Source: Fibrobacterota bacterium (lineage in GTDB: Bacteria; Fibrobacterota; Fibrobacteria; UBA11236). From it: a stretch of DNA of 64,000 bases. Made by a program: the position numbers and the translations under genes. Numbering within the stretch: the stretch's first letter is position 1; each line of letters opens with the position of its first letter. The stretch spans positions 31,857-95,856 of the forward strand of contig JAQBPO010000018.1 in NCBI GenBank assembly GCA_028287465.1, given 5' to 3'. Below are positions 3,764-59,554 of this stretch, piece by piece. Under the pieces are notes generated by a model, which saw only the letters and a list, made by a program, of their open reading frames with translations, was not told the origin of the DNA and did no database searches.

Positions 3764-4689
3764 GCCGAGCCTCATTCATCGCGGGCCTCTCGCTCTGGGC
3801 CGCATTATCCTTGTGCCCGCGCGCGGCGCGCGCGGACGACTCGCCCAAATACGCCGAGCGCGGCCTAACCGCCTATTACGCCGGCAAATACGATCTGGCG
3901 CGCATGTTCTTCGCCAAGGCGATGCAGGACGCCGTGCTCAAGGGCAAGGACGAATGGATCGCCAAGGCCACCTTGAACCTCGTGGACGTGGAGTTGGAGG
4001 CCAATGATGAACGCGAGGCCCAGCGTCTGCTGGAGGGCATGAACACCCGGGATAAGGGCATCCGGTCCCTGTGGCTTTGGAAGCGCTCCCAGCTCGCCAA
4101 CCTGCAAAGGCTATATCCCCTCGCGTTGGAACTGGTCGATTCCGCCTTGGATCTGGCCAAGGGCGATCCCGCGAAAACGGCATCGATGGGCCTGGACCGG
4201 ATGCGTTACCTGATCCAATCGAAAGAACCTTCCGTATGGTCTTCGCAGTACGAAAGCTTCAGGAAGGGACTCGGCCGCATGCGGTCCGCTCCCCTGGACG
4301 CGATGGCGGCCATGGCCCGCAAGGATTACGGCAAGGCGGACACCTTATGGCGCGAGGCCATGGGTTATTACCGGGACCAGGGCCGCCTGGCCAAGGTGGC
4401 CGGATGCCTGAACCAGTCCGCGATCTGCCTTTTTTCCATGGGACGCCGGAGCGAGGCCCTGGAAACCAATGCCCGCGCCGTCGCCATCTTCGGCGAATTG
4501 GGCCTGGAGATGCCCGGCCTGAAGGCCCAGGCGCTCCGGCTTTTGCTCGTGGACGACGGTCCTGAGCTTGCCAAATTGCGGCAGGATATGGATCTTGTCG
4601 GACAACGGTTCAGCGGCTTCGACCTGCAAGGGATCCTGGATGAGTATTCGCACAATCTGCGTGACGGCCGCCCTGGCGTGGGGAATTAG
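3760..4689 (+). CDS. Secreted TPR-repeat protein
   Basis: Signal peptide (ARA|DD) and helical TPR-like repeats (GKYDLARMFFAKA, GRRSEALETNARA); translationally coupled to mlaD. Confidence 0.7.
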   Translation: MSRASFIAGLSLWAALSLCPRAARADDSPKYAERGLTAYYAGKYDLARMFFAKAMQDAVLKGKDEWIAKATLNLVDVELEANDEREAQRLLEGMNTRDKGIRSLWLWKRSQLANLQRLYPLALELVDSALDLAKGDPAKTASMGLDRMRYLIQSKEPSVWSSQYESFRKGLGRMRSAPLDAMAAMARKDYGKADTLWREAMGYYRDQGRLAKVAGCLNQSAICLFSMGRRSEALETNARAVAIFGELGLEMPGLKAQALRLLLVDDGPELAKLRQDMDLVGQRFSGFDLQGILDEYSHNLRDGRPGVGN

Positions 4690-6115: not shown

Positions 6116-6358
6116 GCCCGGCGGCCCGGAAGTCAAAGCCGTAATGCGGGTTTTCCGGCACCAACCAGCGCGGCCGGCCACCTGATCAGCCTCTCGAGGC
6201 CGAGGTTTGAGGTTGTTTAGGATCCCCATCCTCCATTCAGCCTTCCTTTTTCCGCTCGGCTTCCCAGACTTTCCTTTACGTATTTTGCGGCCAGCCTGTA
6301 CTCTCTAGGTACCCCGCCGCCGCGTCGATTCCGAAAGGCCGGGAAGAGGATTGGACCC

Positions 6359-7423
6359 GTGAAGCGCAAGTACAAATTCCCCGTCTCCCAACAAGCGAAC
6401 CTCCTGGGCCTCGAATGGCAGAAGCTATGCACCTTCGGCCTCTCGCAACCCGAGCGGTTCGAGGAAAAGAAGCATCGCGCCACCTTCCTGGGGCCCTTGG
6501 ACAGCCGCGGCTACCATTGGTCCTATCCGGCCAACGATTACCCGTCCACCTTCGGCCGGTTCATGTCGTATTTCCTGCACGAGGTTCCCCAGCCCGATGG
6601 CAGCATCTACGAGATCTACATGAAGGAAACGGAATTCCCGACCCAGCTCGAGGAAGTCCTCGCCCTGCGCCTCGGCGAAGCCGAAACCGCCCTGGTCGAG
6701 TTCATGGGCATGCACGAGGACCGCGTACGGTTCTACGGGCGCGACCTCGGGAGCGGAAAGGAAATCCTCTACAGCCCCAACGATTACCTGGCCTGGTGGA
6801 CCTCGCCCCTGAAGCCGTCCAAGGACGCCTGCTTCATGCAGGTCCATCGCGCTCCGCTCCGTTCCATCAACGTGAACGTCTCCGAGGCCGTCCTGCTCAC
6901 CGCGCCAACGTACTACACGGGCAATGAATTGCGCGCCCGCAGCCTCACCTGCCTGCGCCTCTGCCCCAACGGCCTCTCCGCCTTCACCCTCGAGAAGAAA
7001 ATCTGGGCGCACGCGCATTGGATGGACTTCTGCGTGGACATGCCCATCCCCAGCGAGAACTACCTCCAGGCCCTGGTGCGGTGGGAAGAGTATCTCGACA
7101 AGGAACTCGAGGATTCCTGGTCATTCCCGGCCCTTCTTCACGACTGGGAGTTGAGCGGCAGCCTGGTCACGCGCATGGTGCAGGATCTGGCCGGCGCGAC
7201 CATCGCCATCCCCGAATTGGAATGGGTGATCGAAAGCATCTGGAACGAGCAACCGCGCGTCAGCCTTTGGGGCAAAACGCCCAGGCAGACGGGCAAATGC
7301 CTGTGCAGCCAGGACATGCTCGACGAGGTCATCCGCGCCATCAAGCTCAAGGGCAAGGCCAACCTGCTGCCCCGGCACGTCCTGATGGCCCGCGCCATCG
7401 AATTGCCGGAACCGGCACGATAG
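6359..7423 (+). CDS. Hypothetical protein
   Basis: 354-aa ORF with host-like GC3 bias; no family confidently recognised. Confidence 0.7.
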   Translation: MKRKYKFPVSQQANLLGLEWQKLCTFGLSQPERFEEKKHRATFLGPLDSRGYHWSYPANDYPSTFGRFMSYFLHEVPQPDGSIYEIYMKETEFPTQLEEVLALRLGEAETALVEFMGMHEDRVRFYGRDLGSGKEILYSPNDYLAWWTSPLKPSKDACFMQVHRAPLRSINVNVSEAVLLTAPTYYTGNELRARSLTCLRLCPNGLSAFTLEKKIWAHAHWMDFCVDMPIPSENYLQALVRWEEYLDKELEDSWSFPALLHDWELSGSLVTRMVQDLAGATIAIPELEWVIESIWNEQPRVSLWGKTPRQTGKCLCSQDMLDEVIRAIKLKGKANLLPRHVLMARAIELPEPAR

Positions 7424-7474
7424 GAATCGTGTTCGCCCGTTAGGAGTCGGGTTCGCACGATAGGAATCGGGTCG
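7415..7474. repeat. Three imperfect 20-bp tandem repeats, each a small hairpin with an AGGA loop
   Basis: gcacgataggaatcgtgttc / gcccgttaggagtcgggttc / gcacgataggaatcgggtcg. Confidence 0.8.
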
Positions 7475-7492
7475 ACCGGAAATCAAGACATG

Positions 7493-7531
7493 AAAAAAGC
7501 CGCGGGTCCAGGGACCCGCGGCTTTTTATTT
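7493..7531. terminator. Bidirectional intrinsic terminator
   Basis: aaaaaagccgcgggtcc-ag-ggacccgcggcttttt between convergent genes. Confidence 0.88.
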
Positions 7532-7550
7532 GCATCCTATCCGGGTAGGC

Positions 7551-8309
7551 TCAGAACGCCAGGGCGCCGCCCAATTCGAAGGTCATGCTGTTGGCGTCGA
7601 CGGCCGAAGGCATGGATCCGAGGAAGTGGTATTTGGCATCGGCATAGATGGCGATGGGGATGATGGGAGCCTTGGCCTTGGCGCCCAGTTCCAGGTGGAA
7701 ACCAAAGCCGCTCTTGAGGCCCTCGTCCTTGATCGCTTCTACGAGGATCTTGGAAACCTCTTCGGGGGAATCGGCGGCGGTGGAACCGCCCGTTGCGACG
7801 GCCTTGTCCACGGCGGACTTGGCGAACTTGGCGTTCAGGACTTCCGTGGCCACCACCTGGGTGATGCCGGCGCCGGCATACAGCTTGACGATGCTCACCA
7901 GGGGGGGCAGCTTGAGGAACGGATAAAGGATGGTCGCGTCGCTGACGATGCGGGCGAAGCCGGGCTTATCGACCGTGGGAATTCCCAGGTCGAACTTGAG
8001 GGGGGTCGTGGTCGTGCCCGGGCCGATGATGCTGACATCGTACATGCCGTACTGGATATTGCTGCCGGCTTCGATATCGATGAACGGGAGGAAGTCGATC
8101 CACAGTTTCAGGCCGAACCCGTTCAGGCCGGAGACCGCGTTCTGCTTGATCGAGATGCTTTCCGATCCGCTGGTGGCTATCTGCCCATTGGAAGATTTGA
8201 CTTCCAGGCTGGGCGCGGGGGCCCAGTGGCCTCCGATCCCGAAAATCGCGTGGGAATACACCACCGAGCATGCGGCGACGGCCAAGGTTCTGGTCCACAA
8301 GGTATTCAT
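7551..8309 (-). CDS. Outer-membrane beta-barrel-like protein
   Basis: GGAGG RBS, signal peptide (SHA|IF), amphipathic strands and a C-terminal Phe (GGALAF). Confidence 0.65.
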   Translation of the reverse strand: MNTLWTRTLAVAACSVVYSHAIFGIGGHWAPAPSLEVKSSNGQIATSGSESISIKQNAVSGLNGFGLKLWIDFLPFIDIEAGSNIQYGMYDVSIIGPGTTTTPLKFDLGIPTVDKPGFARIVSDATILYPFLKLPPLVSIVKLYAGAGITQVVATEVLNAKFAKSAVDKAVATGGSTAADSPEEVSKILVEAIKDEGLKSGFGFHLELGAKAKAPIIPIAIYADAKYHFLGSMPSAVDANSMTFELGGALAF

Positions 8310-8408
8310 GTATCCTCCGGAAAATGTGAATCGCTGATGCCTTTTACAATAAATAAAAGGGGGGCCTTTTGCAACGCATTCCGGAGCCTGTCCGCGATTT
8401 GCCATTAC

Positions 8409-9212
8409 TCAAACGAGGGAAATGAAGGCCGCCATCCGTCCGGAAGCCTGTCCGTCGCGGCGATACGAGAAGTACCTCTCCGGTTCACGCAGGGTATCGC
8501 CGCCGCAATCGCGGATATTGCCGGAAGGTATCCCGGCGGCCAATGCCTGGGCGCGATTGCTTGCGGGCATATCGAAATGGAACCGCCCATCCTTGCGGAC
8601 CACGAACTCCGGCTCGAGGCGGCACGCCAATTCCGCTCCCACTTCCAGGGATTCGACGCGCAGGCAAGGGCCGAAGGCGACCAAGGTACGATCGGGGCAG
8701 ATGCGCCCGGATGCCGCCAGGGCGCGCAGGGCCTTTTCCAGGATATGCGCATGGGTTCCCCGCCATCCCGCATGCACGGCGGCGATGGTTCCCGCCTGGG
8801 GATCGAATACGAGAGCGGTGAGGCAATCCGCCATGGTGACTGCGAGCGCTCGGGCGGAAGAGCCGGAACAGAGCGCATCCGCCTCCGCAGGCTCCAGGCG
8901 CACCGGCGAAGGGGTTTTCCTTTCCTTTCCCCATGTTTCCGCGGGATCGGGAAACAGGTCGGCATCCGCCATGGAATCGCCGTGGACCATGCGGGGAAGA
9001 ACCAGGGTTTTTCCGGCGAGCCCGGCCGCGGCCAGGGTCAGGTTCCAGTTGCTGGAAACGCTTTCCGGATCATCGCCGGCGCGGAATCCGAGGTTCAGAT
9101 CGGAATAGGCCCCTGTGCTCGCGCCCCCGGCATGGCGCGTGGTGAAGGCCGCGCGGACTCGTCCCTCCCATTCCGGGAAAGGACGGATCAAAAACGGGGG
9201 GAAGGGACTCAC
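8409..9212 (-). CDS. pgeF: Peptidoglycan editing factor PgeF/YfiH (laccase-like)
   Basis: FTTRHAG, LNLG, ADCL, AAVHAGWRG, YFSYRR..GRM motifs. Confidence 0.92.
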   Translation of the reverse strand: MSPFPPFLIRPFPEWEGRVRAAFTTRHAGGASTGAYSDLNLGFRAGDDPESVSSNWNLTLAAAGLAGKTLVLPRMVHGDSMADADLFPDPAETWGKERKTPSPVRLEPAEADALCSGSSARALAVTMADCLTALVFDPQAGTIAAVHAGWRGTHAHILEKALRALAASGRICPDRTLVAFGPCLRVESLEVGAELACRLEPEFVVRKDGRFHFDMPASNRAQALAAGIPSGNIRDCGGDTLREPERYFSYRRDGQASGRMAAFISLV

Positions 9213-10636
9213 ACGTCAAGGATAACAAGGGTGGCGTCGTCCGCCAATTCGCCCGTGGCCTGGGTCGATCCGCCCAGGAAGTCCGATCGCAATCGCATCA
9301 GGGAATCGATCAAGGCCGCTGGGTGGTCGGGCCCGGAGCCAAGGGCCAATTCCTTGAGCGGCTCAATGCCGAACATCTTTCCGTTGATGCCATGGGCCTC
9401 GGTAATGCCGTCGGTGAATAGGAAGATGCGCGCTTCCGGCGCCAGTTCGAGAGTCGCCTCGGAAAGGAAGGTGTTGGCGAACATTCCCAGGACGAGCCCT
9501 TGGGAGGACATCTCCAACAGGCTTTCCCCGGTCGGCTCGCTTTCCGGGCTCTGACGCACCATTTGCGCCACGTGGCCGGCATTGCAATAGGTGAGCCGCC
9601 GGCTCCGCTTGTCGAAAATGGCGTAGAAAGCGGTCACGAACTGGGCCGCGCCGAGTTGCTGGGTCATGAAGGTGGCGTTGATCCTGTTGAGAACGCTGCA
9701 AGGCGAGGGATCCGGGTCTCCCGCGGAGTCCATGGCGGAGAACGTCCGGAGCAGGACCTTGAACATGGACATGACCAGGGCCGCTCCGATTCCATGGCCC
9801 GAAACATCGGCCACCACCAGGCCCAGGTTCCCGGAGGGCAATTCGAAGCAATCGTAGTAGTCGCCTCCGACCATGCCGGCCGGGATGTATTTGGAGGCGA
9901 TGCGCTTCAGCAGGTGGTCCGGAAAGGCGGTCGGGAGCAGGTTGTTCTGGATGGCCCGCGCACGGTCCAGATCCTTTTCGATGGTCTTCTGGGCCTTGCT
10001 CAGGGCGGCATAGGCCTCATTGAGCTTGGTATTGATCTGCTTCAATTCCGTATTCGCGGCGGCCAGTTCGCGCTGGGCCCGCCACGTCTCCATCATCAGT
10101 CCCGCCTGATTGGCGAGGCTGGAGAGATGGGAGATCGTCTGACCGGTGAGTTCTGGGCCGGGAGGCGTGGTATCCAACCACAATGCGCCAAGGGGCAGGA
10201 TGCAGGAAGGGGTTTCCGGAGCCATTTCCGCCACCCGGGTGGTGATGGGCATGATGAGGTAGCTTCCGGCGCCGGTCACGAAGAATGGATCGTCCTTTGG
10301 GATGGTTTCCACAAGCAGATGGCGGTGGGTCATCAAGCAGGCATGTATGGTTCCCGTGGCGGGGGAAACCCGGATGGCCTCCATGATTTCCGGCGACAAG
10401 CCCAATCCATGGGTGGGGGAGAGGTAGGCCTGTCCCGGTTTCAGGCCGAGCAAGGCCATGTTCTGCACCCCGGTCAGTTCGGTGATGCCTAATAGGAAGG
10501 CATCCAGGGCCTGATCCAAGGTGGCCGCCGAATGCATCACCCGCGTGACTTCCTGGACCAGGGAGCTCAGCACCAGTTCCTTGGATAGGAGTTCCTGGTT
10601 CTGATTGTCTTCCGTTTCTTGCGGCTCCATGGGCAT
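9209..10636 (-). CDS. GAF + coiled-coil + SpoIIE/PP2C phosphatase
   Basis: VGGDYYD, VADVSGHG, FTDGITEA and DDATL motifs; start chosen at MPMEPQ. Confidence 0.88.
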   Translation of the reverse strand: MPMEPQETEDNQNQELLSKELVLSSLVQEVTRVMHSAATLDQALDAFLLGITELTGVQNMALLGLKPGQAYLSPTHGLGLSPEIMEAIRVSPATGTIHACLMTHRHLLVETIPKDDPFFVTGAGSYLIMPITTRVAEMAPETPSCILPLGALWLDTTPPGPELTGQTISHLSSLANQAGLMMETWRAQRELAAANTELKQINTKLNEAYAALSKAQKTIEKDLDRARAIQNNLLPTAFPDHLLKRIASKYIPAGMVGGDYYDCFELPSGNLGLVVADVSGHGIGAALVMSMFKVLLRTFSAMDSAGDPDPSPCSVLNRINATFMTQQLGAAQFVTAFYAIFDKRSRRLTYCNAGHVAQMVRQSPESEPTGESLLEMSSQGLVLGMFANTFLSEATLELAPEARIFLFTDGITEAHGINGKMFGIEPLKELALGSGPDHPAALIDSLMRLRSDFLGGSTQATGELADDATLVILDV

Positions 10637-10812
10637 TTCGGTGGCTTTCTCCTGATTGGTGGCCGGTCCGATTATACCACAACCGAGGGACCAGACCAAA
10701 GCCGGTTGACCGGGCAGGGGGGGATAGCTAAGTTTTATAGCCGTTTTCAAGGGGTGGATGCCCCTTCCGAACAGCGTTCCATAGTTCCCTCATAGTTCCT
10801 TAAGAGGCCCGG

Positions 10813-11532
10813 ATGAATCTCATGAATCAAAACCCCGCCGCCAAAGCCCCCGAGAAGGAAGCCGGCCTCGTCGAATGGTTCCTCATCGATTTCTGGCCGC
10901 GTTTCGGGAAGCAGTTCTCCATCTTCCTCGTGGCCCTGGCCGCGCTGGTGCTTGGAGTCGTGTGGTTCAAGGGGCACCAGGAGGCCCAGGCCGCGAAGGA
11001 GAACAAGGAACTCGGACTGGCCTATGTCTATTACAGCGAGGACAAGAACGATTCCGCTCTCGCCTTCTTGACTTCCTTCCTGAAAACCAACCATTCCCGC
11101 CTGGTGCAGGACAAGGCCAATCTGATGCTCGGCCAAATCCAATATTCCAATGGCAAATATGATGACGCCATCAAGGCTTTCAGCCAGGTCGATCTTTCCA
11201 ATACCAAGCAGCCTTTGATCTCTTCCGGGGCCATGCATGGCCTGGCCTCGGCCTATATCCAGAACAAGAACTACCCCCTGGCCGTTGAAACCCTGGAGAA
11301 GTTCGTTTCCCGTTTCGGCCGCAGGACCGGTAAGCCCTCGGAGAAGGTGGCCGGAAACGAGGTCGCCGACCTGAGCCCGGCCGTGCCTAACGCCTTGTGG
11401 AAACTGGCCTTGAGCTATCATGAGCTGAAGAACGACGAGAAGGCCAAGGCGACCGCCAAAAAGCTGGCGAATCTCTATCCCGAATCCCGCGAAGCCTTCG
11501 ACGCCACGCGCCTTCTGGCCCAACTTCCCTGA
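10813..11532 (+). CDS. Membrane-anchored TPR protein (YfgM/CpoB-like)
   Basis: Single N-terminal TM helix followed by TPRs, ending in LYPESREA. Confidence 0.75.
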   Translation: MNLMNQNPAAKAPEKEAGLVEWFLIDFWPRFGKQFSIFLVALAALVLGVVWFKGHQEAQAAKENKELGLAYVYYSEDKNDSALAFLTSFLKTNHSRLVQDKANLMLGQIQYSNGKYDDAIKAFSQVDLSNTKQPLISSGAMHGLASAYIQNKNYPLAVETLEKFVSRFGRRTGKPSEKVAGNEVADLSPAVPNALWKLALSYHELKNDEKAKATAKKLANLYPESREAFDATRLLAQLP

Positions 11533-11632
11533 GTCCCGGGCCCCGTTCCCGGGGCCCTCCTTCCGGTCCATAATCCACCCTTGATGGACCCTACTGCCAT
11601 TTTCCGGCAGACCCGATTCGTATATTCTTAGC

Positions 11633-13636
11633 ATGTCCATATTCAAGCTCGAATCCCCCTTCGCCCCCGCAGGCGATCAGCCGGCAGCCATTGAACAATT
11701 GATCGGCGGATTCAAGGCCGGGGAGAAGTTCCAGACCCTGATGGGGGTGACCGGATCCGGCAAGACCTTCACCATGGCCAACCTGATCCAGGAACTGGGC
11801 AAACCCACCCTGATCATCTCCCATAACAAGACCCTGGCCGCCCAGCTTTACCAGGAGTTCAGGGCCTTCTTCCCCAAGAACGCGGTGGAATACTTCGTCA
11901 GCTATTACGATTACTACCAGCCGGAGGCGTACGTTCCTTCCAGCGATACCTACATCGAAAAGGATTCGAGCCAGAACGATGAGATCGACAAGCTCCGGCT
12001 GAGGGCCACGGCCTCCCTGGTCTCGCGAAAGGACGTCATCGTGGTCTCTTCGGTTTCCTGCATCTATGGCCTGGGCACCCCTACGGAATTCCGTAAGATG
12101 ATGATCGAGATCAAGGTCGGTGATTCCATTGAACGCAACGACTTGCTGAGGAAGTTCATCGACATCTATTACAGCCGCAACGATTTCGATTTCCGGCGCG
12201 GCACCTTCCGGGTGCGCGGGGACGTGGTGGAGCTCCATCCCGCCTATGACGACTTCGCCTATCGCTTCGAGTTCTTCGGCGATGAAGTCGAGAAAATAAG
12301 GCGCATCAACCTGATTACCGGCGAGGAAGAGGCCCAGCTTGACCAGGTCCTGATCTATCCCGCCCGGCATTACGTGACCAGCGAACAGGGGATGGATCGC
12401 GTGCTCCGGGACATGCGCAACGAATTGGATGAATCCCTGCGCACCTTCACGGCCCAGAACAAGCTCCTGGAGGCCCAACGCCTGAGCCAGCGCACCATGT
12501 ACGACATGGAAATGCTCAAGGAGGTCGGCCACTGCCCCGGAGTCGAGAACTACTCCCGCATCATCGAAAACCGGGCCGTCGGGACCCCGCCATCCACCTT
12601 GATGGACTTTTTCGGGGACGACTACCTGCTCATCCTGGATGAATCCCATGTGACCATCCCCCAGATCGGGGCCATGTACAATGGGGACCGTTCCCGTAAG
12701 GAGAACCTGGTCAATTACGGGTTCCGCCTCCCATGCGCCCTGGACAACCGTCCCCTGAAGTTCAATGAATTCGAGGCCAAGATCCCAGCCACCCTTTTCG
12801 TCTCGGCCACGCCCGCGGATTATGAATTGCGGAAATCAGGCGGCGTGGTGGTCGAACAGATCATCCGTCCCACCGGTCTCCTCGACCCGGAAATCGAAGT
12901 GCGGCCCACCAAGGGACAGATCGACGAAATCCTGAACGAAATATCCATGCGCAACGCCAAGAACGAACGCACCCTGATAACCACCCTTACGAAGCGGAGC
13001 GCCGAGGATCTGACCGATTACCTGCAGCAGGCCGGTCTTAAGGTGAGCTATATGCACTCCGATACCACCACCCTGGCGCGCAGCGCGATCGTCAAGGATC
13101 TTCGCGAGGGGAACATAGATATCCTTGTGGGAATCAATCTCTTGCGCGAGGGCCTGGATCTTCCCGAAGTGTCCCTGGTCGTCATCCTGGATGCGGACAA
13201 GGAAGGGTTCCTCCGCAGCAATCGATCCCTGATCCAGACCATCGGCCGCGCGGCCCGCCACCTCCACGGAAAGGTCATCCTGTTCGCGGACAAGATGACG
13301 GACAGCATGCGGTACGCCATCGATGAGACGAACAAGCGCCGGGCCAGGCAGGAAGAATCGAACCGGCGCACGGGCATGGTCCCAAGGGGCGTACAGAGGG
13401 AAATCCACAAGCATCTGCAACTCGTCCCGGACGTCGATTACAGCATCGACCTCAAGGCCCTGATGGTCGCGGAAGAAGATGCGGCCTACCAGGCCGCCGA
13501 ACGGGATGGGGTCGCGAAGGGCGGAAACCCGACCGTGGAGGCCCTTCGCAAGGAGATGCGCGAGGCCGCCGCGAATCTGGAATTCGAAAAGGCCGCCCAC
13601 TTCCGCGACCGGATCCGAAAACTCGAAGGGGGCTGA
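11633..13636 (+). CDS. uvrB: Excinuclease ABC subunit B
   Basis: GVTGSGKTFT, YYDYYQPEAY, DESH and a C-terminal UVR domain (LEFEKAAHFRD). Confidence 0.98.
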   Translation: MSIFKLESPFAPAGDQPAAIEQLIGGFKAGEKFQTLMGVTGSGKTFTMANLIQELGKPTLIISHNKTLAAQLYQEFRAFFPKNAVEYFVSYYDYYQPEAYVPSSDTYIEKDSSQNDEIDKLRLRATASLVSRKDVIVVSSVSCIYGLGTPTEFRKMMIEIKVGDSIERNDLLRKFIDIYYSRNDFDFRRGTFRVRGDVVELHPAYDDFAYRFEFFGDEVEKIRRINLITGEEEAQLDQVLIYPARHYVTSEQGMDRVLRDMRNELDESLRTFTAQNKLLEAQRLSQRTMYDMEMLKEVGHCPGVENYSRIIENRAVGTPPSTLMDFFGDDYLLILDESHVTIPQIGAMYNGDRSRKENLVNYGFRLPCALDNRPLKFNEFEAKIPATLFVSATPADYELRKSGGVVVEQIIRPTGLLDPEIEVRPTKGQIDEILNEISMRNAKNERTLITTLTKRSAEDLTDYLQQAGLKVSYMHSDTTTLARSAIVKDLREGNIDILVGINLLREGLDLPEVSLVVILDADKEGFLRSNRSLIQTIGRAARHLHGKVILFADKMTDSMRYAIDETNKRRARQEESNRRTGMVPRGVQREIHKHLQLVPDVDYSIDLKALMVAEEDAAYQAAERDGVAKGGNPTVEALRKEMREAAANLEFEKAAHFRDRIRKLEGG

Positions 13637-53044: not shown

Positions 53045-53120
53045 GCGGATTTAGCTCAGTTGGTAGAGCTTTTGCTTCCCAAGCAAAGGGTCGCGGGTTC
53101 GAGTCCCGCAATCCGCTCCA
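53045..53120 (+). tRNA. tRNA-Gly (CCC), the integration target
   Basis: GCGGATTTAGCTCAGTTGGTAGAGC-TTTTGC-TTCCCAA-GCAAAG...GGTTCGAGTCC...ATCCGCTCCA. Confidence 0.97.
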
Positions 53121-53121
53121 T
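53069..53121 (+). repeat. attL core (53 bp)
   Basis: cttttgcttcccaagcaaagggtcgcgggttcgagtcccgcaatccgctccat. Confidence 0.95.
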
Positions 53122-53133
53122 TCTTCCTCTCCC

Positions 53134-53169
53134 CAAACCCCTGATTTCATTGAGTAAATCAGGGGTTTG
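53134..53169 (+). terminator. Element-supplied hairpin after the tRNA
   Basis: caaacccctgattt...aaatcaggggtttg. Confidence 0.7.
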
Positions 53170-53539
53170 CGGGGGACTTCGAAATTCCCAGCCTCTTCGA
53201 TAATACCCCTGAATACCCCCGCGTACACCGGGGGGTGCGTACGCTCCGCGTACACTTGGATCCTTCCTTCCCATTAACCCGGGCGGCTTGGGCAGGCTCC
53301 CGAATGATTTCCAGCACTGCGGACTTCCTGTCCGTCGCCTGTCCAGCTATTGCCCAAAGGGGATAGTGTCCAAATTTGACTCAATGGGCTTTAGATTTAG
53401 CCTTCGGACTCAGAAACGATTGCAGACTGGACCGCTTTTCAGTGCAAGCCCACAGGCGGCAATTCTAAGATGGTAAAGTTCCGGGCGTACTTGCCATCCT
53501 CTCCGTCTGCATGGCTCCAGGCGTTGTATTTCTTGACTT

Positions 53540-53734
53540 AGGGATGCGCTTGCAATCCAAGTCATACATTTCCTAATCCATGATCTTTGTGCAAGACTCG
53601 CCAACCCGGCCGCCCAGGCGCATGGTGGTATCCAGATGAATCCCCGTCATGCGCTCGATGGAGCGGATTAAGCATCCTTCAGCCAGGAATGCGATGGCGG
53701 TAATTTACTTGCCTTTCGGGAGAACGTTGGACAT
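53540..53734 (-). pseudogene. IS1-family transposase N-terminal remnant
   Basis: Manual translation MSNVLPKGK*ITAIAFLAEGCLIRSIERMTGIHLDTTMRLGGRVGESCTKIMD*EMYDLDCKRI has two in-frame stops and is truncated before the DDE core. Confidence 0.75.
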
Positions 53735-53812
53735 GAGTAATCTCTTGTGTATGGACTTAGTGCAATACAATAAGTATGGTGCTGCAAGGAGTTTATGTAT
53801 TACATTTACTTT

Positions 53813-53983
53813 ATGGACAAGCCGATAAAGATGGGTCGCCCTAAACTTCCAAAGACCAGATCGGATATTTATCCAATTAGGCTCTTGCCGGAGGAAAGGG
53901 AGAAATACGAGGGGAAAGCAGCAAAGGCCAGCCTCTCTCTAGCTGAATGGATTCGGAATGCATTGCGAAATGCATCGAAATGA
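53813..53983 (+). CDS. Small ribbon-helix-helix/Arc-like regulator
   Basis: KMGRPKLP...IRL.PEE...Y...A....LSLAEWIR pattern. Confidence 0.7.
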   Translation: MDKPIKMGRPKLPKTRSDIYPIRLLPEEREKYEGKAAKASLSLAEWIRNALRNASK

Positions 53984-54006
53984 GGTATATTCTGTATTAC
54001 GAAAAG

Positions 54007-54078
54007 TGTGGACGCGGCGGGGATCAGACCCGCGAATCCCGGTGTAAATCCGAGGAAGCCTACGCCAATAGCGCACCC
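54007..54078 (-). ncRNA. Degenerate tRNA-like cloverleaf
   Basis: Acceptor GGGTGCG/CGCGTCC; anticodon arm CTCGG-ATTTACA-CCGGG; T arm GCGGG-TCTGATC-CCCGC; weak D arm. Confidence 0.55.
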
Positions 54079-54229
54079 ATACGATTCGTCTGACAGAAAC
54101 GGAAGCCCCGAGCAATCGGAGCCTCCTGGATAGTTTGAGCGTCGGACCCGGGATAGCAGCAGTTCGCGAGACGATAGCTACCCGGGTCCGTTCCATTGGT
54201 TTCCTTCTTTACTTGCCCTTCAGGTTCGC

Positions 54230-54703
54230 TCACCCTGAAGCCCCTGCTTTAATATCATCCCACACCTCCCTTCTGATTGAATAGCCTTCGACACCCACCC
54301 GATCAATAGTTTGAGTCCTATTTTTCAAGTGGGAAATTTTGTTCTCCAGGCGTTTTTTAAACCTAAGGTCATCTTTTTTAACCCAGCCTTTTTTAGCAAA
54401 CTCCTCGGCAAAATCCTTTGGAGTCATGGGCTTGTTTTTCTTCACCCAAAGCAGCCAGTAGATTCTACCGCGATCCGTAGTGGGAGGCTCATTTTCGATC
54501 AGCATCACACCGTCGATGCAGGGGTTTGCGGCAATGGCTGAGAGGAAATCCACTTGCGGCTTGATGGGTGTATACGATGTGTCGAAGATTCGATTCACTT
54601 CGATCAGTTTTTGCAGCTTAGGCAAAACGCGAGGCATCAATTCAGACAGCGCCTTCATGTGATAAAAGGCTCTTTCGATATCCGATGTTCCTGATTGGCT
54701 CAT
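54230..54703 (-). CDS. Hypothetical protein with C-terminal winged-helix-like domain
   Basis: PMTPKDFAEEFAKKG...LENKISHLK...IDRVGVEGYSI pattern. Confidence 0.6.
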   Translation of the reverse strand: MSQSGTSDIERAFYHMKALSELMPRVLPKLQKLIEVNRIFDTSYTPIKPQVDFLSAIAANPCIDGVMLIENEPPTTDRGRIYWLLWVKKNKPMTPKDFAEEFAKKGWVKKDDLRFKKRLENKISHLKNRTQTIDRVGVEGYSIRREVWDDIKAGASG

Positions 54704-55137
54704 GCTTTTTCCTTGCACTCAAATATACTTTAAAACCCCACCCCCATGGGGGTGATTCGTGTGCAGTACCCAAGCAGGCGGTAATTTGCCTTAAAAGTCA
54801 TATTTAGGTCTTTTTCGGGGAGCGTGGCACCCCTTTCTGGATTGGGGGTGCCCATAGGATTTCCCTCCAAAAACTCAATTTCGCGCCCCCGCTTTGGGGG
54901 AAACTCTTGTGTTACTTACAAGCATCCGGACGGATGCCATTGAAATCCTGATATTTCGGCAATTTGAAATCAGGACACTACCCCAAAGGGTATCGTGGAT
55001 TGGGTGGGGCTGGAAAAAACGTATTTTTGGGAAGGGATAGGCTCCTACTCGCTGGCCAGCGAGAACGGACGCCGAAAGGCCGCACTCCGAGCGGCCTTCC
55101 CTTTCCCCATCTCGGAGACGAAACCTCGGAGGGTTTT

Positions 55138-55665
55138 ATGGGCGAAGAAACCGAATTCTATGGAGAGCCAAAACCATGGCTGGATAAGTTTCCGGCCGAA
55201 GAGGCAATTCCCGCATCCGTTTTATGGGACCTTCTGCCGTATAACCGCGAAATAGGTCCCGCTTTGCGCGGGGATCCGATGCCCTCTGGAAAGTTGGAAA
55301 AAGCGTTATGGGAGGCGAAGCGAGAAAAGGACTTCCAGGAACTTTTAAAGCTCCGGGATCAAGGCACTCACGTTGAATCGGAGCGAATGCCAAAAATTCT
55401 TCAAGAAGATTCCAAAAGCAACAATGTCAGCGTATCATTCGGGGTGCGTCTCAAGGAAGTTAGAGCCAAGCATTCTCTTTCGAGGGAAGAACTCGTCCGA
55501 AAGATGAGGTTAGAATTCGGATCCAAGGCACCGAGCATAGGAGCCTTAAAAAAGATTGAAGCAGGAAGCGAACCATTGGAAAAAAATCGGCGTATGTATG
55601 AATGGGTTTTTGCGCTCCCCATAGCGAATAGATCAAATCGAATTCAGCAGGGTAGCCCAAAGTAA
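55138..55665 (+). CDS. Protein with C-terminal XRE-type HTH
   Basis: GGAGG RBS; FGVRLKEVRAKHSLSREEL...ALKKIEAG. Confidence 0.7.
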   Translation: MGEETEFYGEPKPWLDKFPAEEAIPASVLWDLLPYNREIGPALRGDPMPSGKLEKALWEAKREKDFQELLKLRDQGTHVESERMPKILQEDSKSNNVSVSFGVRLKEVRAKHSLSREELVRKMRLEFGSKAPSIGALKKIEAGSEPLEKNRRMYEWVFALPIANRSNRIQQGSPK

Positions 55666-55733
55666 CCCGACATAGCCCATTGCTTTCTCCCAACTCCTAG
55701 ATTCACCGTGACGGTATGCCTATCATAGGGGCA

Positions 55734-55856
55734 TGACACCCACCCGCATCAGCCAGCCACTCCCAAGATTGGAATCGCCGCCTCGCTACCATGCGGGTCG
55801 GGTTGTCAGCTTCACCATTGTGGTGGCGGCGGCGGTTCCATTCTTAGGGGTCGGCT
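55734..55856 (+). promoter_or_regulatory. Structured leader (crossing stems) upstream of the rep-like gene
   Basis: 55734-55749 pairs with 55791-55808; 55755-55790 pairs with 55821-55856. Confidence 0.6.
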
Positions 55857-56525
55857 ATGATTCCTAATTCAGGACAATATCCCCTAGACCCAGAAAACGC
55901 CAACTTCCCCGATGGCCCGGCCGAATTTATGCGCGGTTACAATGCCGCAGCGGAAGCCCAGGCGGCCCAAACAAAACCATTACGGCAGGCCATTACGCGG
56001 CCTTCAGGATTCTATCGACTCAATAGCGCGGAGTTTTCCGTGCATATCTACGATGCTTTGGCTGCGGGCGGCGTGGAAGCCGTTGGCCGGTTTGCGCTAA
56101 GCCTTGCGCGCGCCCTGGCTTTGGGAGACGCAACGGGATGTCCTCTGGCTGCATCAATGATTTCCGAGGCTGCGGACTTTTCGGAAAAAGCACGCAGGGC
56201 TGCAAACAAGCGTTGGGAAGCGGAAGAAGTGCGGGCGCAAAGTACTGCAATGCCCGGGCATACGAACGCATTGCCCACTCAATCCGAACCCAATGCTCAA
56301 GATATGCCATACAAGCAATCAGCCACCCAAGCACCCAAGCAAAAATCAATACTGCCTTTAGGTGAAAAGGATTCTCTCTCCGGTCTATCCAATGGTGGAA
56401 CTAGAGACAGCGTTCCCGCCCAAGGCTCAAAAACTCACCCGCCCAACTTGCGGGCATTGGCTTCACTTTTCGACCCGCGAGCCCGCCACGCAGGCCGAGA
56501 TTCAACCTCGGCGGAAAAGGAATAG
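55857..56525 (+). CDS. YdaU/DUF1376-like phage replication-initiator-type protein
   Basis: SEKARRAANKRW motif followed by a low-complexity A/M/P/Q linker, typical of phage replisome organisers. Confidence 0.55.
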   Translation: MIPNSGQYPLDPENANFPDGPAEFMRGYNAAAEAQAAQTKPLRQAITRPSGFYRLNSAEFSVHIYDALAAGGVEAVGRFALSLARALALGDATGCPLAASMISEAADFSEKARRAANKRWEAEEVRAQSTAMPGHTNALPTQSEPNAQDMPYKQSATQAPKQKSILPLGEKDSLSGLSNGGTRDSVPAQGSKTHPPNLRALASLFDPRARHAGRDSTSAEKE

Positions 56526-56527
56526 AA

Positions 56528-56803
56528 ATGCACGTTAAAAACCTTCTTAGAGTCCTCGATGCAGGAGGCCAAAGAAACTTGGCCGCTGAGATCCGGGGTA
56601 AACTGGAATCCTGGGGATTCGATGAAAACGACTATGGCGGGCCTTTTACAAATGACGGCATTTTGATTGATCCCGAAAAGCAATTCGAAGTAAAGGAAAG
56701 CCAGATCGCGGCGATCCCCTCAAATCCAGATCCTGATTTGTTACCGAGTCCGGAATCTATTCTAGACGGTGGAAGCCCGACTCATTATCAGGACCGTGAA
56801 TAA
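56528..56803 (+). CDS. Small hypothetical protein of the element
   Basis: Starts 2 nt after the upstream stop, with an AAGGA RBS. Confidence 0.6.
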   Translation: MHVKNLLRVLDAGGQRNLAAEIRGKLESWGFDENDYGGPFTNDGILIDPEKQFEVKESQIAAIPSNPDPDLLPSPESILDGGSPTHYQDRE

Positions 56804-56830
56804 CCATTTAACATTTTTGGAGGTTTTCAA

Positions 56831-57034
56831 ATGACAATAATCGATTTTTTGGCTCTAATGCTCCTCGATAGAAATCTCTCCATCGGCGTTGGAACCGTCT
56901 CATTTCAGCGCCACCTCCCCGGGGGCTCTCTTGCTGCCTGCCCTCCCAAAGAAGGCATGGCTGATTTCCTCACCCGAAACCCGGGTTTTACCCCGCCAGA
57001 GGAAATCACGGCCATCCTAGAAGGGGCCGACTGA
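56831..57034 (+). CDS. Small hypothetical protein of the element
   Basis: GGAGG RBS; stop overlaps the next start (TGATG). Confidence 0.6.
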   Translation: MTIIDFLALMLLDRNLSIGVGTVSFQRHLPGGSLAACPPKEGMADFLTRNPGFTPPEEITAILEGAD

Positions 57035-57240
57035 TGGACCTAAGGGAACCGCGCCTTATGCGCATCTTCGCGGCAATGATAAATATGGGCTGGACTCGCC
57101 ACCGGGAAGGCGCTTGGTGTCCTGGCATCCTTTCCAGAGACGGTAAGCGCTGGAAGTGCGCCAGGACCGATGGAGAAAAACAAGATGCAATAAACACGTT
57201 TCTAAATCGCTACCCGCACTTCTTGGTGAAGGGTTCCTGA
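57034..57240 (+). CDS. Small hypothetical protein of the element
   Basis: Translationally coupled on both sides. Confidence 0.6.
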   Translation: MDLREPRLMRIFAAMINMGWTRHREGAWCPGILSRDGKRWKCARTDGEKQDAINTFLNRYPHFLVKGS

Positions 57241-57243
57241 CCT

Positions 57244-57717
57244 ATGCCCCGCGCACTTTCAGGCCGCCGAGCCGCGTTTGTTGAAGCCTATACAGCTTCC
57301 GGCAATGCCTCGGTTGCTGCGCGGGCCGCTGGCTACAGCATGCGGAGCGCTTATTCCACCGGATCGCGTTTGCTGAGAAATGCTGAGATTCGAAACGCGA
57401 TTGCTGAAATCCGAGAGAGGGTGCTTGGGTCGATAGTGGCGGATGCAAAAATGGTATTGGCCGAACTATCCGCCTTGGCCCTGGCCGGGGAGGTTGCGGC
57501 CGATCCGCTAGCTGGGGCTCGCTTACGGGCTAAAGTACAGGCCCTAACGGTTCTAGCAAAACACCATGGGTTATTAGACGGCCCTAAAGGGGGTTCGATG
57601 GATCAGGAGCGTATCAACGCCAAGTTGGCCGAGGTTGCGGACCTTATCCAAGGGAGGGATGGAAGCAGCCGAATCGATGGAGGCTTAGGCGAGGTGGGCT
57701 ACAATGTCGCAGAGTAA
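57244..57717 (+). CDS. terS: Terminase small subunit (Terminase_2-like)
   Basis: LS.RRAAFVEAY...GNASVAARAAGYS..SA...GSRLLRN.EI...I...VLAEL..LA...K..AL..LAKHHGL pattern. Confidence 0.9.
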   Translation: MPRALSGRRAAFVEAYTASGNASVAARAAGYSMRSAYSTGSRLLRNAEIRNAIAEIRERVLGSIVADAKMVLAELSALALAGEVAADPLAGARLRAKVQALTVLAKHHGLLDGPKGGSMDQERINAKLAEVADLIQGRDGSSRIDGGLGEVGYNVAE

Positions 57718-58063
57718 TATGAGTGGTATTGACTCTTTGCCTAGCGAACAAAAGGGCTTGCCCCAAGGCGCAAAGGAAACGGGCGTTTTCTCACCTTTGC
57801 AGGCCGGGAGTACGCAGGATCGTACGCATGAGGCTGCTTATTTCACGGTTGAATCCCTGGCCGCCTATCTGGACGTTCCACGGCGTACCATCGAAAAATG
57901 GGCCATCGCGCGGCGTTTGCCGGGAATGGTAAAGGCGGGCCGCTTGCTTCGTTTCGAGCGAACGGCGATTGATCGGGCCGCGCTCTCCGGTGCCCTGCTA
58001 TTGCCCGCCACGCATAACCGTCGCGTTGCGCCCTCGGTGTTACAACGTTCCGGAAATCGATAG
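57704..58063 (+). CDS. xis: Excisionase-type HTH (HTH_17) protein
   Basis: YFTVESLAAYLDVPRRTIEKW...LPG.VKAGRLLRF; directly upstream of the integrase. Confidence 0.8.
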   Translation: MSQSNMSGIDSLPSEQKGLPQGAKETGVFSPLQAGSTQDRTHEAAYFTVESLAAYLDVPRRTIEKWAIARRLPGMVKAGRLLRFERTAIDRAALSGALLLPATHNRRVAPSVLQRSGNR

Positions 58064-58134
58064 ACAATGCACCCCGGCTCGCTTAGATTTATCCCTACCT
58101 GCCCGGGCCGTCCATTTGAGAAGGAATCTTCCAG

Positions 58135-59283
58135 ATGGATACTTTAAACATTCGACCACTCGATCCCACTCCCGAACATCCCTATCCACGCTTTTACCTG
58201 GACGTGCGCATACGTCGTCCGGGTGGGGGTGAAAACCGTATTCGGGAAACCCTCAATACGGGCAGCTATGCGAAGGCCAAGGCCCGTTACCTTGAGCTTC
58301 AGGCGCAACTAAGAAACGGATCGCGCGTGCCCATCACGGCACCTCCCGGCACTTTCGGCGACGTGCTAGAACGCTATCGCGCACGCCGGGGAGAAATCCG
58401 GGGGGGCCAGCTTACCACGTTCCAAACCCTCGTCAAAGACCTTGGGCAAACGCCTTTGGGGGCTTTGGAAGGTGCATTTGAGCGGTATGCTTCCATTATT
58501 CGGAATACAATCTCTCCCAGGACTGGCCGCCGGTACTCGAATGCGACAGTGAACCGCTTGCGCTCCATGGCGACAGCGGCGATCAACTTGGCGATTGATC
58601 TCCGAATCCTGGAACGGAACCCGCTCACCCGGGCCGTATGGCCCAAAGCCAAGGAATTTTCACGGGATCGCATCCTTTCATCCGATGAAACCATTCGACT
58701 TTTGAACGTGATCGATCGGGAAGCCCCGCATCTTGGCCCCTTGGCGCGGTTTTCCATGGCCGTGCCTGCAAGGAAAGGCGAGCTAGTGAATGCTAGGCGC
58801 GAATGGCTTGATGAAATCGCCGGGGTGATCCGCGTTCCCGGCAAGGCTGGGAAGGGCGGGCGCGGGTCGGTCAAACCCATCCCGCCCGATCTTCTCCCGT
58901 ACTTTCGCTCCCTGCCCTCGGAAACGCCCTTCCTTTTCTTCCGGCGGCATGGGGGGCGGTTTCTCCCCCTCGGAGACTTTAAGCGGTCCTGGCACCGTTG
59001 CTTGGCCCTGGCGGGCATCGGGGATTTCCGGTTCCATGACCTTCGGCACGTCGCATGCACGAACCTTTTGGCGGCGGGTTCGAACCTAAAGGCCGTTCAG
59101 ATGGTGGGGGGCTGGGCGGATTCGAAGATGGTGGACAAGTATCACTCTTTCTCGGGGATTTCCCTTCGGGATGGAATTAGATTTCCCATTGGGATTGAAG
59201 GGTCCCGCGTACGATCTGCGTACACTTCGGGTGAGGAGATCGAAAAAGGCAGCGAATTTCGAGAGGTTATGGCGGTTTCATAA
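58135..59283 (+). CDS. int: Tyrosine recombinase/integrase
   Basis: Catalytic R (ARKGEL), K (GKAGK), HDLRH, W (GGW), Y (VDKYH); ends 6 nt before attR. Confidence 0.93.
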   Translation: MDTLNIRPLDPTPEHPYPRFYLDVRIRRPGGGENRIRETLNTGSYAKAKARYLELQAQLRNGSRVPITAPPGTFGDVLERYRARRGEIRGGQLTTFQTLVKDLGQTPLGALEGAFERYASIIRNTISPRTGRRYSNATVNRLRSMATAAINLAIDLRILERNPLTRAVWPKAKEFSRDRILSSDETIRLLNVIDREAPHLGPLARFSMAVPARKGELVNARREWLDEIAGVIRVPGKAGKGGRGSVKPIPPDLLPYFRSLPSETPFLFFRRHGGRFLPLGDFKRSWHRCLALAGIGDFRFHDLRHVACTNLLAAGSNLKAVQMVGGWADSKMVDKYHSFSGISLRDGIRFPIGIEGSRVRSAYTSGEEIEKGSEFREVMAVS

Positions 59284-59289
59284 GAAATC

Positions 59290-59342
59290 CTTTTGCTTCC
59301 CAAGCAAAGGGTCGCGGGTTCGAGTCCCGCAATCCGCTCCAT
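59290..59342 (+). repeat. attR core (53 bp, duplicated tRNA-Gly 3' end)
   Basis: Identical to 53069-53121. Confidence 0.95.
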
Positions 59343-59407
59343 AAGCCCCTTCGTGTTGCCGGATTCCCTGAGGAATCGGCGGACACCGGAGGGGCTTTTT
59401 CATTTTG
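59343..59407 (+). terminator. Probable original tRNA-Gly terminator
   Basis: aagcccctt...gaggggcttttt hairpin with T-tract right after attR. Confidence 0.7.
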
Positions 59408-59554
59408 GTTCCACCCTGATCCTTTGAAGGTCCTCGCCTGCACCCCGGGAAATCCCGGAAAAGCCGGGCTATACCATTCCGGAGGCGCGGGAGGGGAAGT
59501 CGGTACGGGATGTCCTTAATTGCGAGACCTGGCCCGGGAGCCTTTTCGCGGGGC

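What the first reader, a model, noticed from the sequence alone, without database searches (positions are those of the whole stretch)
53069..59342. Minimal terS-encoding phage satellite at tRNA-Gly(CCC): candidate new PICI-like family
Seen: exact 53-bp attL/attR, an integrase with all catalytic residues, xis, a clear terminase small subunit, a YdaU-like initiator, an XRE regulator and three small coupled ORFs in ~6.2 kb. There is no terL, portal, capsid, tail or recognisable primase-helicase. Known: PICIs/SaPIs use their own TerS to redirect a helper phage TerL, and usually carry pri-rep with int/xis at the end opposite terS. Inference: a compact satellite that hijacks both helper packaging and a helper or host helicase. 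I know of no described satellite in this lineage.
Basis: partly seen in the sequence, partly recalled or inferred. Interest (0 to 1): 0.85.

Follow-up and report, generated by a model that had tools for sequence, protein, structure and literature searches.

The report
Tiny probable phage satellite island
A 6.2-kb mobile island inserted in a glycine tRNA gene of an uncultured soil bacterium carries little more than an integrase, an excisionase and a phage DNA-packaging (small terminase) gene, which makes it a credible but unproven candidate for a very small parasite of phages.

Summary
The island is real. An exact 53-bp repeat (53069-53121 / 59290-59342) is the 3' part of tRNA-Gly(CCC). Sister genomes have the sequence that follows attR directly after their intact tRNA, so 53122-59289 (6168 bp, GC 53.6% against 61.2%) is an insertion. 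Int (all catalytic residues), Xis (HTH_17/excise) and TerS (Pfam Terminase_2; closest solved structure is the SF6 small terminase) are confirmed. No ORF of the island matched a terL, portal, capsid, tail or primase family, and seven such families were sought in the 98%-complete genome and not found. 'YdaU-like' and 'XRE' were not supported. The left end holds a decayed IS1 transposase remnant. In other genomes of the phylum, terS sits beside terL (6 of 10 neighbours tested); here it overlaps xis in one operon. One diverged second copy exists (int 93%, TerS 83%, orf222 73%, each on one 4639-bp contig). The best reading is a minimalist TerS-only satellite (about 0.5). It fails PICI and PICMI membership (no primase), no helper or circular form was seen, and the related int/xis modules in sister genomes belong to conjugative elements. 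The scan has noted a similar 5.3-kb int-xis-terS element in a spirochete before. The phylum name (Fibrobacterota) comes from earlier notes, not from my calls.

The parts
53045..53120 (+). tRNA-Gly(CCC), the integration target. Its 3' part is supplied by the element.
   Evidence: ARAGORN; Rfam tRNA 73.4 bits.
53069..53121 (.). attL core (53 bp, exact copy of attR)
53122..53366 (.). Left arm of the element. It includes a hairpin at 53131-53172 directly after the tRNA. It is 81% identical to the sequence after tRNA-Gly in sister genome G011.
   Evidence: (I6)
53543..53749 (-). Remnant of an IS1-family transposase gene: N-terminal 69 aa, two in-frame stops, rest missing.
   Evidence: tblastn 65% identity, E 3e-25, to the 292-aa G022 protein, which matches PF03400.
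53795..53983 (+). 62-aa ribbon-helix-helix protein (NikA-like)
   Evidence: PF21983 28.3 bits, cut-off 27. G022 has a NikA-like RHH gene in the same divergent position beside its IS1 transposase.
54230..54718 (-). orf162, the only minus-strand gene. Unknown function; by position a candidate repressor or cargo gene.
   Evidence: No family in Pfam, PHROGs, NCBIfam or PADLOC; Atlas best score 0.85.
55030..55136 (+). Structured leader in front of the operon. It is conserved in an unrelated island of G019.
   Evidence: 76% over 115 nt to G019:C475. Sub-threshold Rfam int-alpA RNA match, 29.1 bits against a gathering score of 35.8.
55138..55665 (+). orf175, first gene of the operon and a possible HTH regulator (weak)
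   Evidence: This start is on record from NCBI. HTH_31 E 0.046.
55857..56525 (+). orf222, an orphan protein with a confident three-helix core (residues 50-130). It is a candidate replication or organiser protein by position only.
   Evidence: 2 relatives among 1.84 billion representatives; a 73% copy, P0010; AF2 model; no fold match.
56528..56803 (+). orf91, unknown
56831..57034 (+). orf67, unknown
57034..57240 (+). orf68, unknown; overlaps orf67 by one base
57244..57717 (+). Terminase small subunit (Terminase_2 / SF6 G1P type)
57704..58063 (+). Excisionase-type HTH_17 protein; overlaps terS by 14 bases
58135..59283 (+). Tyrosine integrase
59290..59342 (.). attR core (displaced 3' part of the tRNA)
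59343..59433 (.). Native sequence downstream of the tRNA. It follows the intact tRNA-Gly in G013, G001, G008 and G009.

Best explanation
This is a minimalist phage satellite, PICI-like in logic but not a PICI. The integrase inserts the 6.2-kb element into the 3' end of tRNA-Gly(CCC) and rebuilds the tRNA. On an unknown signal, presumably infection by a pac-type helper phage, the single rightward operon (orf175, orf222, three small ORFs, terS, xis, int) is expressed. Xis and Int excise the element. TerS then binds the element's own DNA and recruits the helper's large terminase, so that element DNA is packaged into helper capsids. With no capsid-resizing genes, the DNA would probably go in as concatemers of the 6.2-kb unit. 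Replication would rest on orf222, on the small ORFs or on helper or host functions.

Shown: the insertion, the att sites, the identities of int, xis and terS, the absence of matches to virion gene families, and the operon layout. Inferred: induction, replication, packaging and the existence of a helper.
For: 1. Precise insertion. The 53-bp repeat is exact, and four sister genomes show the empty-site sequence.
2. TerS is a genuine member of the Terminase_2 family. PF03592 scores 60.1 bits and phrog_51 covers residues 2-114. The SF6 small terminase is the best solved relative: E 4e-4 for the single sequence and 1.6e-31 for the profile. The four best Foldseek hits are SF6 TerS, with the DNA-binding domain at TM 0.86 and rmsd 1.4 A.
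3. terS is orphaned. Seven families were not found in the 98.26%-complete genome: PF03354, PF03237, PF04466, PF17288, PF17289, PF04860 and PF05065. In other genomes of the phylum, the large ORF next to terS is TerL in 6 of 10 cases and a portal in 1 of 10.
4. terS overlaps xis by 14 bases, and the genes from orf222 to int are spaced -14 to 71 bases apart. That is an operon, not a deletion scar.
5. A second copy keeps full-length Int (382 aa, 93%), TerS (157 aa, 83%) and orf222 (223 aa, 73%). Each is recorded on one Logan contig of 4639 bp. That they share one contig is inferred from the equal length.
6. Small integrative elements with terS and without capsid genes are known to be packaged. Examples are VEIMEs (PMC9618062, passages) and PICI-like tycheposons at tRNA genes (10.1101/2020.12.28.424599, passages).
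Against: 1. No helper was found. There are no terL, portal or HK97-capsid matches in the genome. There was no tblastn match of TerS in 50,697 phage records. IMG/VR gave one distant match only.
2. The element's proteins were not found on any viral contig.
3. There is no recognisable replication gene, and orf222 has no family or fold match.
4. Only the N-terminal 60 residues of the TerS model are confident.
5. The nearest int/xis relatives in the phylum (35-45% identity) sit at the ends of conjugative-type elements.
6. The left end carries a decayed IS1 remnant, so part of the island is junk.
7. Only two copies are known.
8. The only run that holds the element is probably its own source. Its contigs break at the repeat, so they cannot tell the integrated form from the excised form.
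Confidence: 0.5

Rival explanations
1. A stranded or decaying integrative element. It would be either the rump of a larger temperate phage or satellite, or a once-mobile island that no longer moves. Its terS would be a leftover without a current function.
For: There is an IS1 transposase remnant with two stops, and about 670 bp of non-coding DNA at the left end. About 26% of the island is non-coding. No helper, circular form or viral-contig relative was seen. G011 has only a left-arm-like 245 bp after its tRNA-Gly, followed by 1.5 kb without long ORFs.
Against: The att cores are 53 of 53 identical. All ten ORFs are open, and int keeps all catalytic residues. The terS/xis overlap and the tight spacing argue against a random deletion junction. 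A copy diverged by 7-27% at the protein level keeps three genes full length.
Confidence: 0.2
2. An integrative mobilizable element that moves by conjugation. It would borrow the transfer machinery of an ICE of the kind found in sister genomes. The RHH protein would act as an oriT accessory factor, and the TerS-like HTH protein would be a DNA-binding accessory.
For: Int382-like integrases (37-44% identity) with Xis-like neighbours lie at the end of elements with TrbI, TrbL and CagX genes in G016 and G002. The two int-proximal ICE genes are shared by G004 (twice), G001 and G011. rhh62 matches NikA-like (28.3 bits) and, weakly, MobA/TraJ.
Against: No relaxase (PF03432), VirB4 (PF03135) or homologue of the sister ICE genes was found in G000. 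The RHH gene sits beside an IS1 remnant exactly as an RHH gene does beside an intact IS1 transposase in G022, so it probably travels with the IS. A full-length Terminase_2 protein has no known role in conjugation (established knowledge).
Confidence: 0.12
3. A small integrative defence or interference island. The TerS-like protein (perhaps with orf162 or the small ORFs) would sabotage packaging of an infecting phage, without the island itself being packaged.
For: Satellite TerS and partner proteins are known to interfere with helper packaging (PMC10085698 and PMC11417361, abstract and listing only). The island has several orphan small genes and an oppositely oriented orphan gene.
Against: None of 9 proteins had a PADLOC match better than E 0.014. 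Coupling of terS to xis-int is what one expects if excision and packaging go together.
Confidence: 0.13

Closest known systems
PICIs (phage-inducible chromosomal islands, including SaPIs), as modelled in SatelliteFinder (PMC10085698)
   Same: Site-specific integrase, an AlpA/excisionase-type HTH gene, its own terS of the Terminase_2 type, no virion or lysis genes, and a single-direction operon after a divergent control region.
   Different: No primase-replicase and no capsid-morphogenesis gene, so 3 of 5 core components. It is 6.2 kb against a median of 9.5 kb. int and xis lie next to terS at the same end. The phylum has no described satellites among the papers I searched.
PICI-like tycheposons of Prochlorococcus (10.1101/2020.12.28.424599)
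   Same: Tyrosine recombinase plus xis, integration into the 3' end of a tRNA gene that leaves partial tRNA copies, and terS as the only packaging gene.
   Different: Tycheposons carry primase/helicase hallmark genes and are described as 10-20 kb. They are marine cyanobacterial elements. The relationship of the integrases was not tested.
VEIMEs, virion-encapsidated integrative mobile elements (PMC9618062)
   Same: Small integrative elements, mostly with tyrosine integrases. Some carry excisionase and terS homologues, some have no known replication gene, and none has capsid-remodelling genes. They are packaged as concatemers.
   Different: VEIMEs are defined by being found in virions, which is not shown here. 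They come from marine hosts. No sequence relationship was found.
PICMIs (PMC10803314; preprint 10.1101/2023.07.18.549517)
   Same: Minimal size and gene number, int plus an AlpA/HTH_17-type excision factor, no capsid genes, and complete dependence on a helper.
   Different: PICMIs need a primase, integrate at fis and have no terS. This element has terS, no primase and a tRNA site.
ICE-type elements of sister genomes (G016:C28, G002:C100 and others)
   Same: Same integrase/Xis family (37-44% identity). They integrate at tRNA genes, with xis-int at the end of the element.
   Different: They carry TrbI/TrbL/CagX-type transfer genes and are over 12 kb. This element has none of those genes and has terS instead.

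Membership tests
PICI (SatelliteFinder core set, PMC10085698) | Integrase | tested here: met
   PF00589 61.3 bits; phrog_1 1.4e-45
PICI (SatelliteFinder core set, PMC10085698) | Regulation module homologous to alpA, merR or stl | tested here: inconclusive
   The Xis-like protein matches HTH_17 (PF12728), which the PICMI paper lists among AlpA profiles. No Stl-like or MerR match was found for orf162 or orf175.
PICI (SatelliteFinder core set, PMC10085698) | Primase-replicase module | tested here: not met
   No primase, helicase or Rep family in any of 10 ORFs
PICI (SatelliteFinder core set, PMC10085698) | Capsid morphogenesis gene | tested here: not met
   No such family. The paper notes that this component is also missing in staphylococcal PICIs.
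PICI (SatelliteFinder core set, PMC10085698) | Small terminase subunit | tested here: met
   PF03592 60.1 bits
PICI (SatelliteFinder core set, PMC10085698) | No tail, holin or other virion genes | tested here: met
PICI | Induction and packaging by a helper phage | not testable with these tools
   No helper is known. The only holder run is kept as contigs, and no joints were seen.
PICMI (10.1101/2023.07.18.549517) | Primase (DUF3987/DUF5906) | tested here: not met
PICMI (10.1101/2023.07.18.549517) | Integration at the end of fis | tested here: not met
   The site is tRNA-Gly(CCC)
Terminase_2 small terminase (SF6/SPP1 G1P type) | Pfam PF03592 above the gathering score | tested here: met
   60.1 against 26.1 bits, covering residues 10-81 only. 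phrog_51 covers 2-114.
Terminase_2 small terminase (SF6/SPP1 G1P type) | N-terminal HTH DNA-binding domain fold | tested here: met
   Foldseek 4zc3: TM 0.86, rmsd 1.4 A, 41% identity. pLDDT over 90 for residues 11-50.
Integrative mobilizable element (conjugative mobilization) | Relaxase or oriT, and a conjugative helper | tested here: not met
   No PF03432, no PF03135 and no homologues of sister ICE genes in G000. oriT is not testable.
   No Pfam match for orf222 or its 2 relatives at E up to 10. The genome-wide PF07120 search was silent, but so were all 14 controls, so that search says nothing.

The most novel reading that the evidence does not exclude
This is a member of an undescribed, cross-phylum class of 'int-xis-terS only' minimal satellites. 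These would have neither a replicase nor capsid-remodelling genes. They would parasitise pac-type (possibly virulent) phages of uncultured soil bacteria, travel as concatemers, and use orphan proteins such as orf222 to recruit helper or host replication. An earlier scan note describes an unrelated 5.3-kb int-xis-orphan-terS element at tRNA-Arg in a rumen spirochete, which would be a second, convergent example.
Probability: 0.3. Interest if true: 0.7.

Novelty: new variant of a known kind. Interest (0 to 1): 0.45.

Why it matters
If it is a satellite, it would be among the smallest known that still bring their own packaging specificity. It would also be the first reported for this phylum in the literature I could search: none of the 10 papers listed mentions Fibrobacter. 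It would show that a TerS gene plus a recombination module can suffice for phage parasitism. That bears on how satellites arise, here apparently by joining a phage terS to an int/xis module of the kind used by conjugative elements in the same genus. It would also give a handle (the TerS) for finding the unknown phages of an uncultured soil lineage. As it stands it is a well-delimited candidate, not a demonstrated system.

Tried and rejected
- Complex prediction of four TerS copies: no verdict, so it is not used.
- Public reads: only X1, probably the source, holds the element. X2 and X3 cover only tRNA-like and flank-like pieces. X1's contigs break at the 53-bp repeat, and no joint for an empty site or a circle was listed. 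Contig depth figures are not copy numbers. The three 'letters between' rows at 59329 to 53052 are other organisms' tandem tRNA contexts.
- Relatives: pattern scans of IMG/VR with TerS, Int and the orf222 alignment found none. The TerS alignment A3 found one distant 39% N-terminal match. The JGI metagenome scan gave one 30% TerS on a 1.5-kb contig. The genome-contig scan with Int gave one 28% match. tblastn of TerS against phage records found none.
- The 4639-bp Logan contig and the 8913-bp JGI contig with a 66% integrase (P0013) could not be fetched.
- orf222: the Atlas gave DUF6291 at 0.90 with 125 shared features, which is weak. BFVD gave a best E of 0.13, with a DUF6291 protein only at rank 28 and probability 0.41. 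PDB gave a best E of 1.5. One relative (P0009) has a DnaT-like C-terminus at E 8.7e-4, but that part is not shared with orf222.
- orf162: the Atlas best score was 0.85 to unnamed viral clusters.
- PADLOC: nothing better than E 0.014.
- Promoter and terminator scan: no more sites than in shuffles.
- Tandem repeats and iterons: none convincing.
- The Rfam int-alpA match is below the gathering score and did not reappear in a 351-base search.
- BLASTP of rhh62 against the G022 RHH gave no alignment. The link between them rests on a shared Pfam family and a shared position.
- Supplementary files of the satellite papers were not opened. They may list elements or profiles that bear on membership.


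Full report
**The observation**

The window holds an exact 53-bp direct repeat at 53069-53121 and 59290-59342. The first copy is the 3' part of a tRNA-Gly(CCC) gene at 53045-53120. The second copy is a displaced tRNA fragment, which ARAGORN mis-reads as a 'tRNA-Leu'. The 6168 bp between the repeats have 53.6% G+C against 61.2% in the flanks.

Comparison with sister genomes settles that this is an insertion. In G013, G001, G008 and G009 the intact tRNA-Gly is followed by the sequence that follows attR in G000, about 60-90 nt with a terminator-like hairpin. In G000 the tRNA is followed by element DNA. The element's first 245 bp are 81% identical to the DNA after tRNA-Gly in G011, whose contig ends 1.5 kb further on. 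G011 therefore carries at least the left arm of a related element.

Further copies of the tRNA's 3' half occur elsewhere in G001 and G009, and contigs of G008 break there. The site therefore looks like a recurrent target.

**Gene content**

Ten ORFs fill 74% of the island.

- **Integrase** (58135-59283). It matches PF00589 and phrog_1 and has R213, K240, H301, R304, W327 and Y336.
- **Xis-like gene** (57704-58063). It passes the cut-offs of HTH_17 and of TIGR01764 'excise'.
- **TerS** (57244-57717). It passes PF03592 (60.1 against 26.1 bits, residues 10-81), and phrog_51 covers residues 2-114. Its best solved relative is the SF6 small terminase, at E 4e-4 for the single sequence and 1.6e-31 for a 17-sequence profile. 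An AlphaFold model (mean pLDDT 71.7, over 90 for residues 11-50) has the SF6 TerS as its four best Foldseek hits. The DNA-binding domain superposes at 1.4 A. The rest of the model is helical but of low confidence.
- **Operon layout.** The three small ORFs and orf222 abut each other and terS, and terS overlaps xis by 14 bases.
- **Virion and replication genes.** No ORF matches a terL, portal, capsid, tail, lysis or primase/helicase family.

**Claims that did not hold**

- orf222 ('YdaU-like') has no family match at any threshold tried. It has only two relatives among 1.84 billion representative proteins and no fold match. Weak, non-significant leads point to DUF6291.
- The 'XRE regulator' has only a sub-threshold HTH_31 hit. 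Its start is more likely 55138, because that exact 175-aa sequence is on record from NCBI.
- The stretch before that start (55030-55136) is a structured element, 76% identical to a stretch in front of the first gene of a different island in G019. It gives a sub-threshold match to the Rfam int-alpA RNA.

The left end holds the N-terminal 69 codons of an IS1-family transposase with two in-frame stops. The neighbouring 62-aa RHH gene (NikA-like, 28.3 bits) stands in the same divergent position as a NikA-like RHH gene beside the intact transposase in G022. The RHH is therefore more likely IS baggage than a conjugation accessory factor.

**Context in the genome and the phylum**

- The genome (98.26% complete, 100 contigs) has no other PF03592 hit. 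It has no match to PF03354, PF03237, PF04466, PF17288, PF17289 (terL), PF04860 (portal) or PF05065 (capsid). It has no paralogues of the island's proteins.
- Among 296 genomes of the phylum, 21 (G000 included) have a PF03592 match and 43 have an int382-like integrase at E 1e-30 or better. Both tallies include the unpublished G012. No contig other than G000's appears in both lists.
- I fetched 18 of the other terS loci, and my TerS profile recognised 13 TerS ORFs in them. For 10 of these I sent the adjacent large ORF to Pfam: 6 of 10 are TerL, 1 is a portal and 3 have no family. The other three had no large neighbour or lay at a contig end, and I did not send them. In this phylum, then, terS normally sits in a phage packaging module, and here it does not.
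- The int/xis module has relatives (37-45% identity) in 13 fetched loci, 10 of them with a Xis-like neighbour. In G016 and G002 these modules end elements with TrbI, TrbL and CagX-type genes. The two int-proximal genes of those elements recur in G004 (two loci), G001 and G011.
- G000 has none of those genes, no VirB4 and no relaxase family match.

**Relatives of the element**

It was not found in 60 related genomes; only pieces of 245 nt or less matched. In the 5.8-billion-protein collection there is one close copy: Int 93% (P0011), TerS 83% (P0002) and orf222 73% (P0010). All three are full length, and each is recorded on one Logan contig of 4639 bp. That they share one contig is my inference from the equal length. 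A 57% TerS (P0003) and 55-66% integrases exist on short contigs. I could not fetch any of these contigs.

**Interpretation**

An orphan, full-length terS wired into the same operon as xis and int, between intact att sites and conserved in a diverged copy, is what a satellite that redirects a helper's terminase looks like. It is not what a deletion remnant looks like.

Against that reading:
- no helper was found;
- no excised or packaged form was seen;
- there is no recognisable replicase;
- the recombination module comes from a family used by conjugative elements;
- part of the island is decayed.

I put the satellite reading at about 0.5, a stranded or decaying element at 0.2, a packaging-interference island at 0.13 and a conjugatively mobilised element at 0.12.

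**Comparison with known systems**

- **PICI.** The element has 3 of the 5 PICI core components of PMC10085698 (passages read), so I do not file it as a PICI.
- **PICMI.** It fails PICMI membership, which requires a primase and the fis site (preprint passages read).
- **Closest in kind.** These are the PICI-like tycheposons (tRNA site, tyrosine recombinase, xis, terS; preprint passages read) and the VEIMEs (small integrative elements packaged as concatemers, some with terS and some without replication genes; PMC9618062, passages read). No sequence relationship to either was found or tested beyond the searches above.
- **Earlier scan note.** Note e1-4617360, which I did not check, describes a 5.3-kb int-xis-orphan-terS element in a spirochete. 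The TerS look-up found no look-alike stretch in earlier windows.
- **Phylum name.** 'Fibrobacterota' comes from earlier notes and not from my own calls.

Noticed in passing
window 55030-55136; L005 1501-1614 (G019:C475): A structured leader of about 105 nt in front of the first operon gene is 76% identical between two otherwise unrelated islands. One inner stem differs by a paired change (GGCCGC/GCGGCC against GGCCGG/CCGGCC). It matches the Rfam int-alpA RNA below threshold (29.1 against 35.8 bits).
   Followed up: partly
L097 (G016:C28), L092 (G002:C100), L093 and L090 (G004), L095 (G001:C57), L040 (G011:C9): A family of conjugative-type elements (TrbI, TrbL x3, CagX-like) ends with a conserved 555-aa and 315-aa gene pair plus xis-int. 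tRNA-Gly(GCC) lies beside int in three of these loci. The elements are shared at 58-88% protein identity among sister genomes, and G000 lacks them.
   Followed up: partly
L034 (G001:C232) 2713-12025: In G001 the tRNA-Gly 3' half plus about 60 nt of its native flank is repeated 9.2 kb downstream. The two copies enclose a 532-aa ORF and a 1523-aa ORF and no integrase-like match. This looks like a different, probably old, insertion at the same site.
   Followed up: partly
L090 (G004:C23) 7550-8629: In G004 an int382-like integrase with the ICE-type 314-aa and 555-aa genes lies about 4.3 kb from the orthologue of the desaturase gene that flanks attR in G000. The same chromosomal neighbourhood therefore hosts a different element there.
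   Followed up: no
L004 (G022:C4) 1250-2325: An intact IS1-family transposase (292 aa) has a divergent 56-aa NikA-like RHH gene. This is the same pairing as the remnant in the window, so the RHH may be a regular passenger or regulator of this IS.
   Followed up: partly
window 55739-55851: Nested inverted repeats (11 and 24 nt arms) lie in the 191-bp gap before orf222. The 161-nt stretch folds at -74.8 kcal/mol, but no shuffle control was run. It could be an origin, a terminator or an attenuator.
   Followed up: no
window 59252-59341: ARAGORN calls a 90-nt 'tRNA-Leu(taa)' here. It is built on the displaced tRNA-Gly 3' half (attR) and is not a gene.
   Followed up: yes
window 53131-53172: The element supplies its own hairpin (17-nt arms, 94% complementary) directly after the rebuilt tRNA. 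It replaces the native terminator-like hairpin, which now lies after attR.
   Followed up: partly
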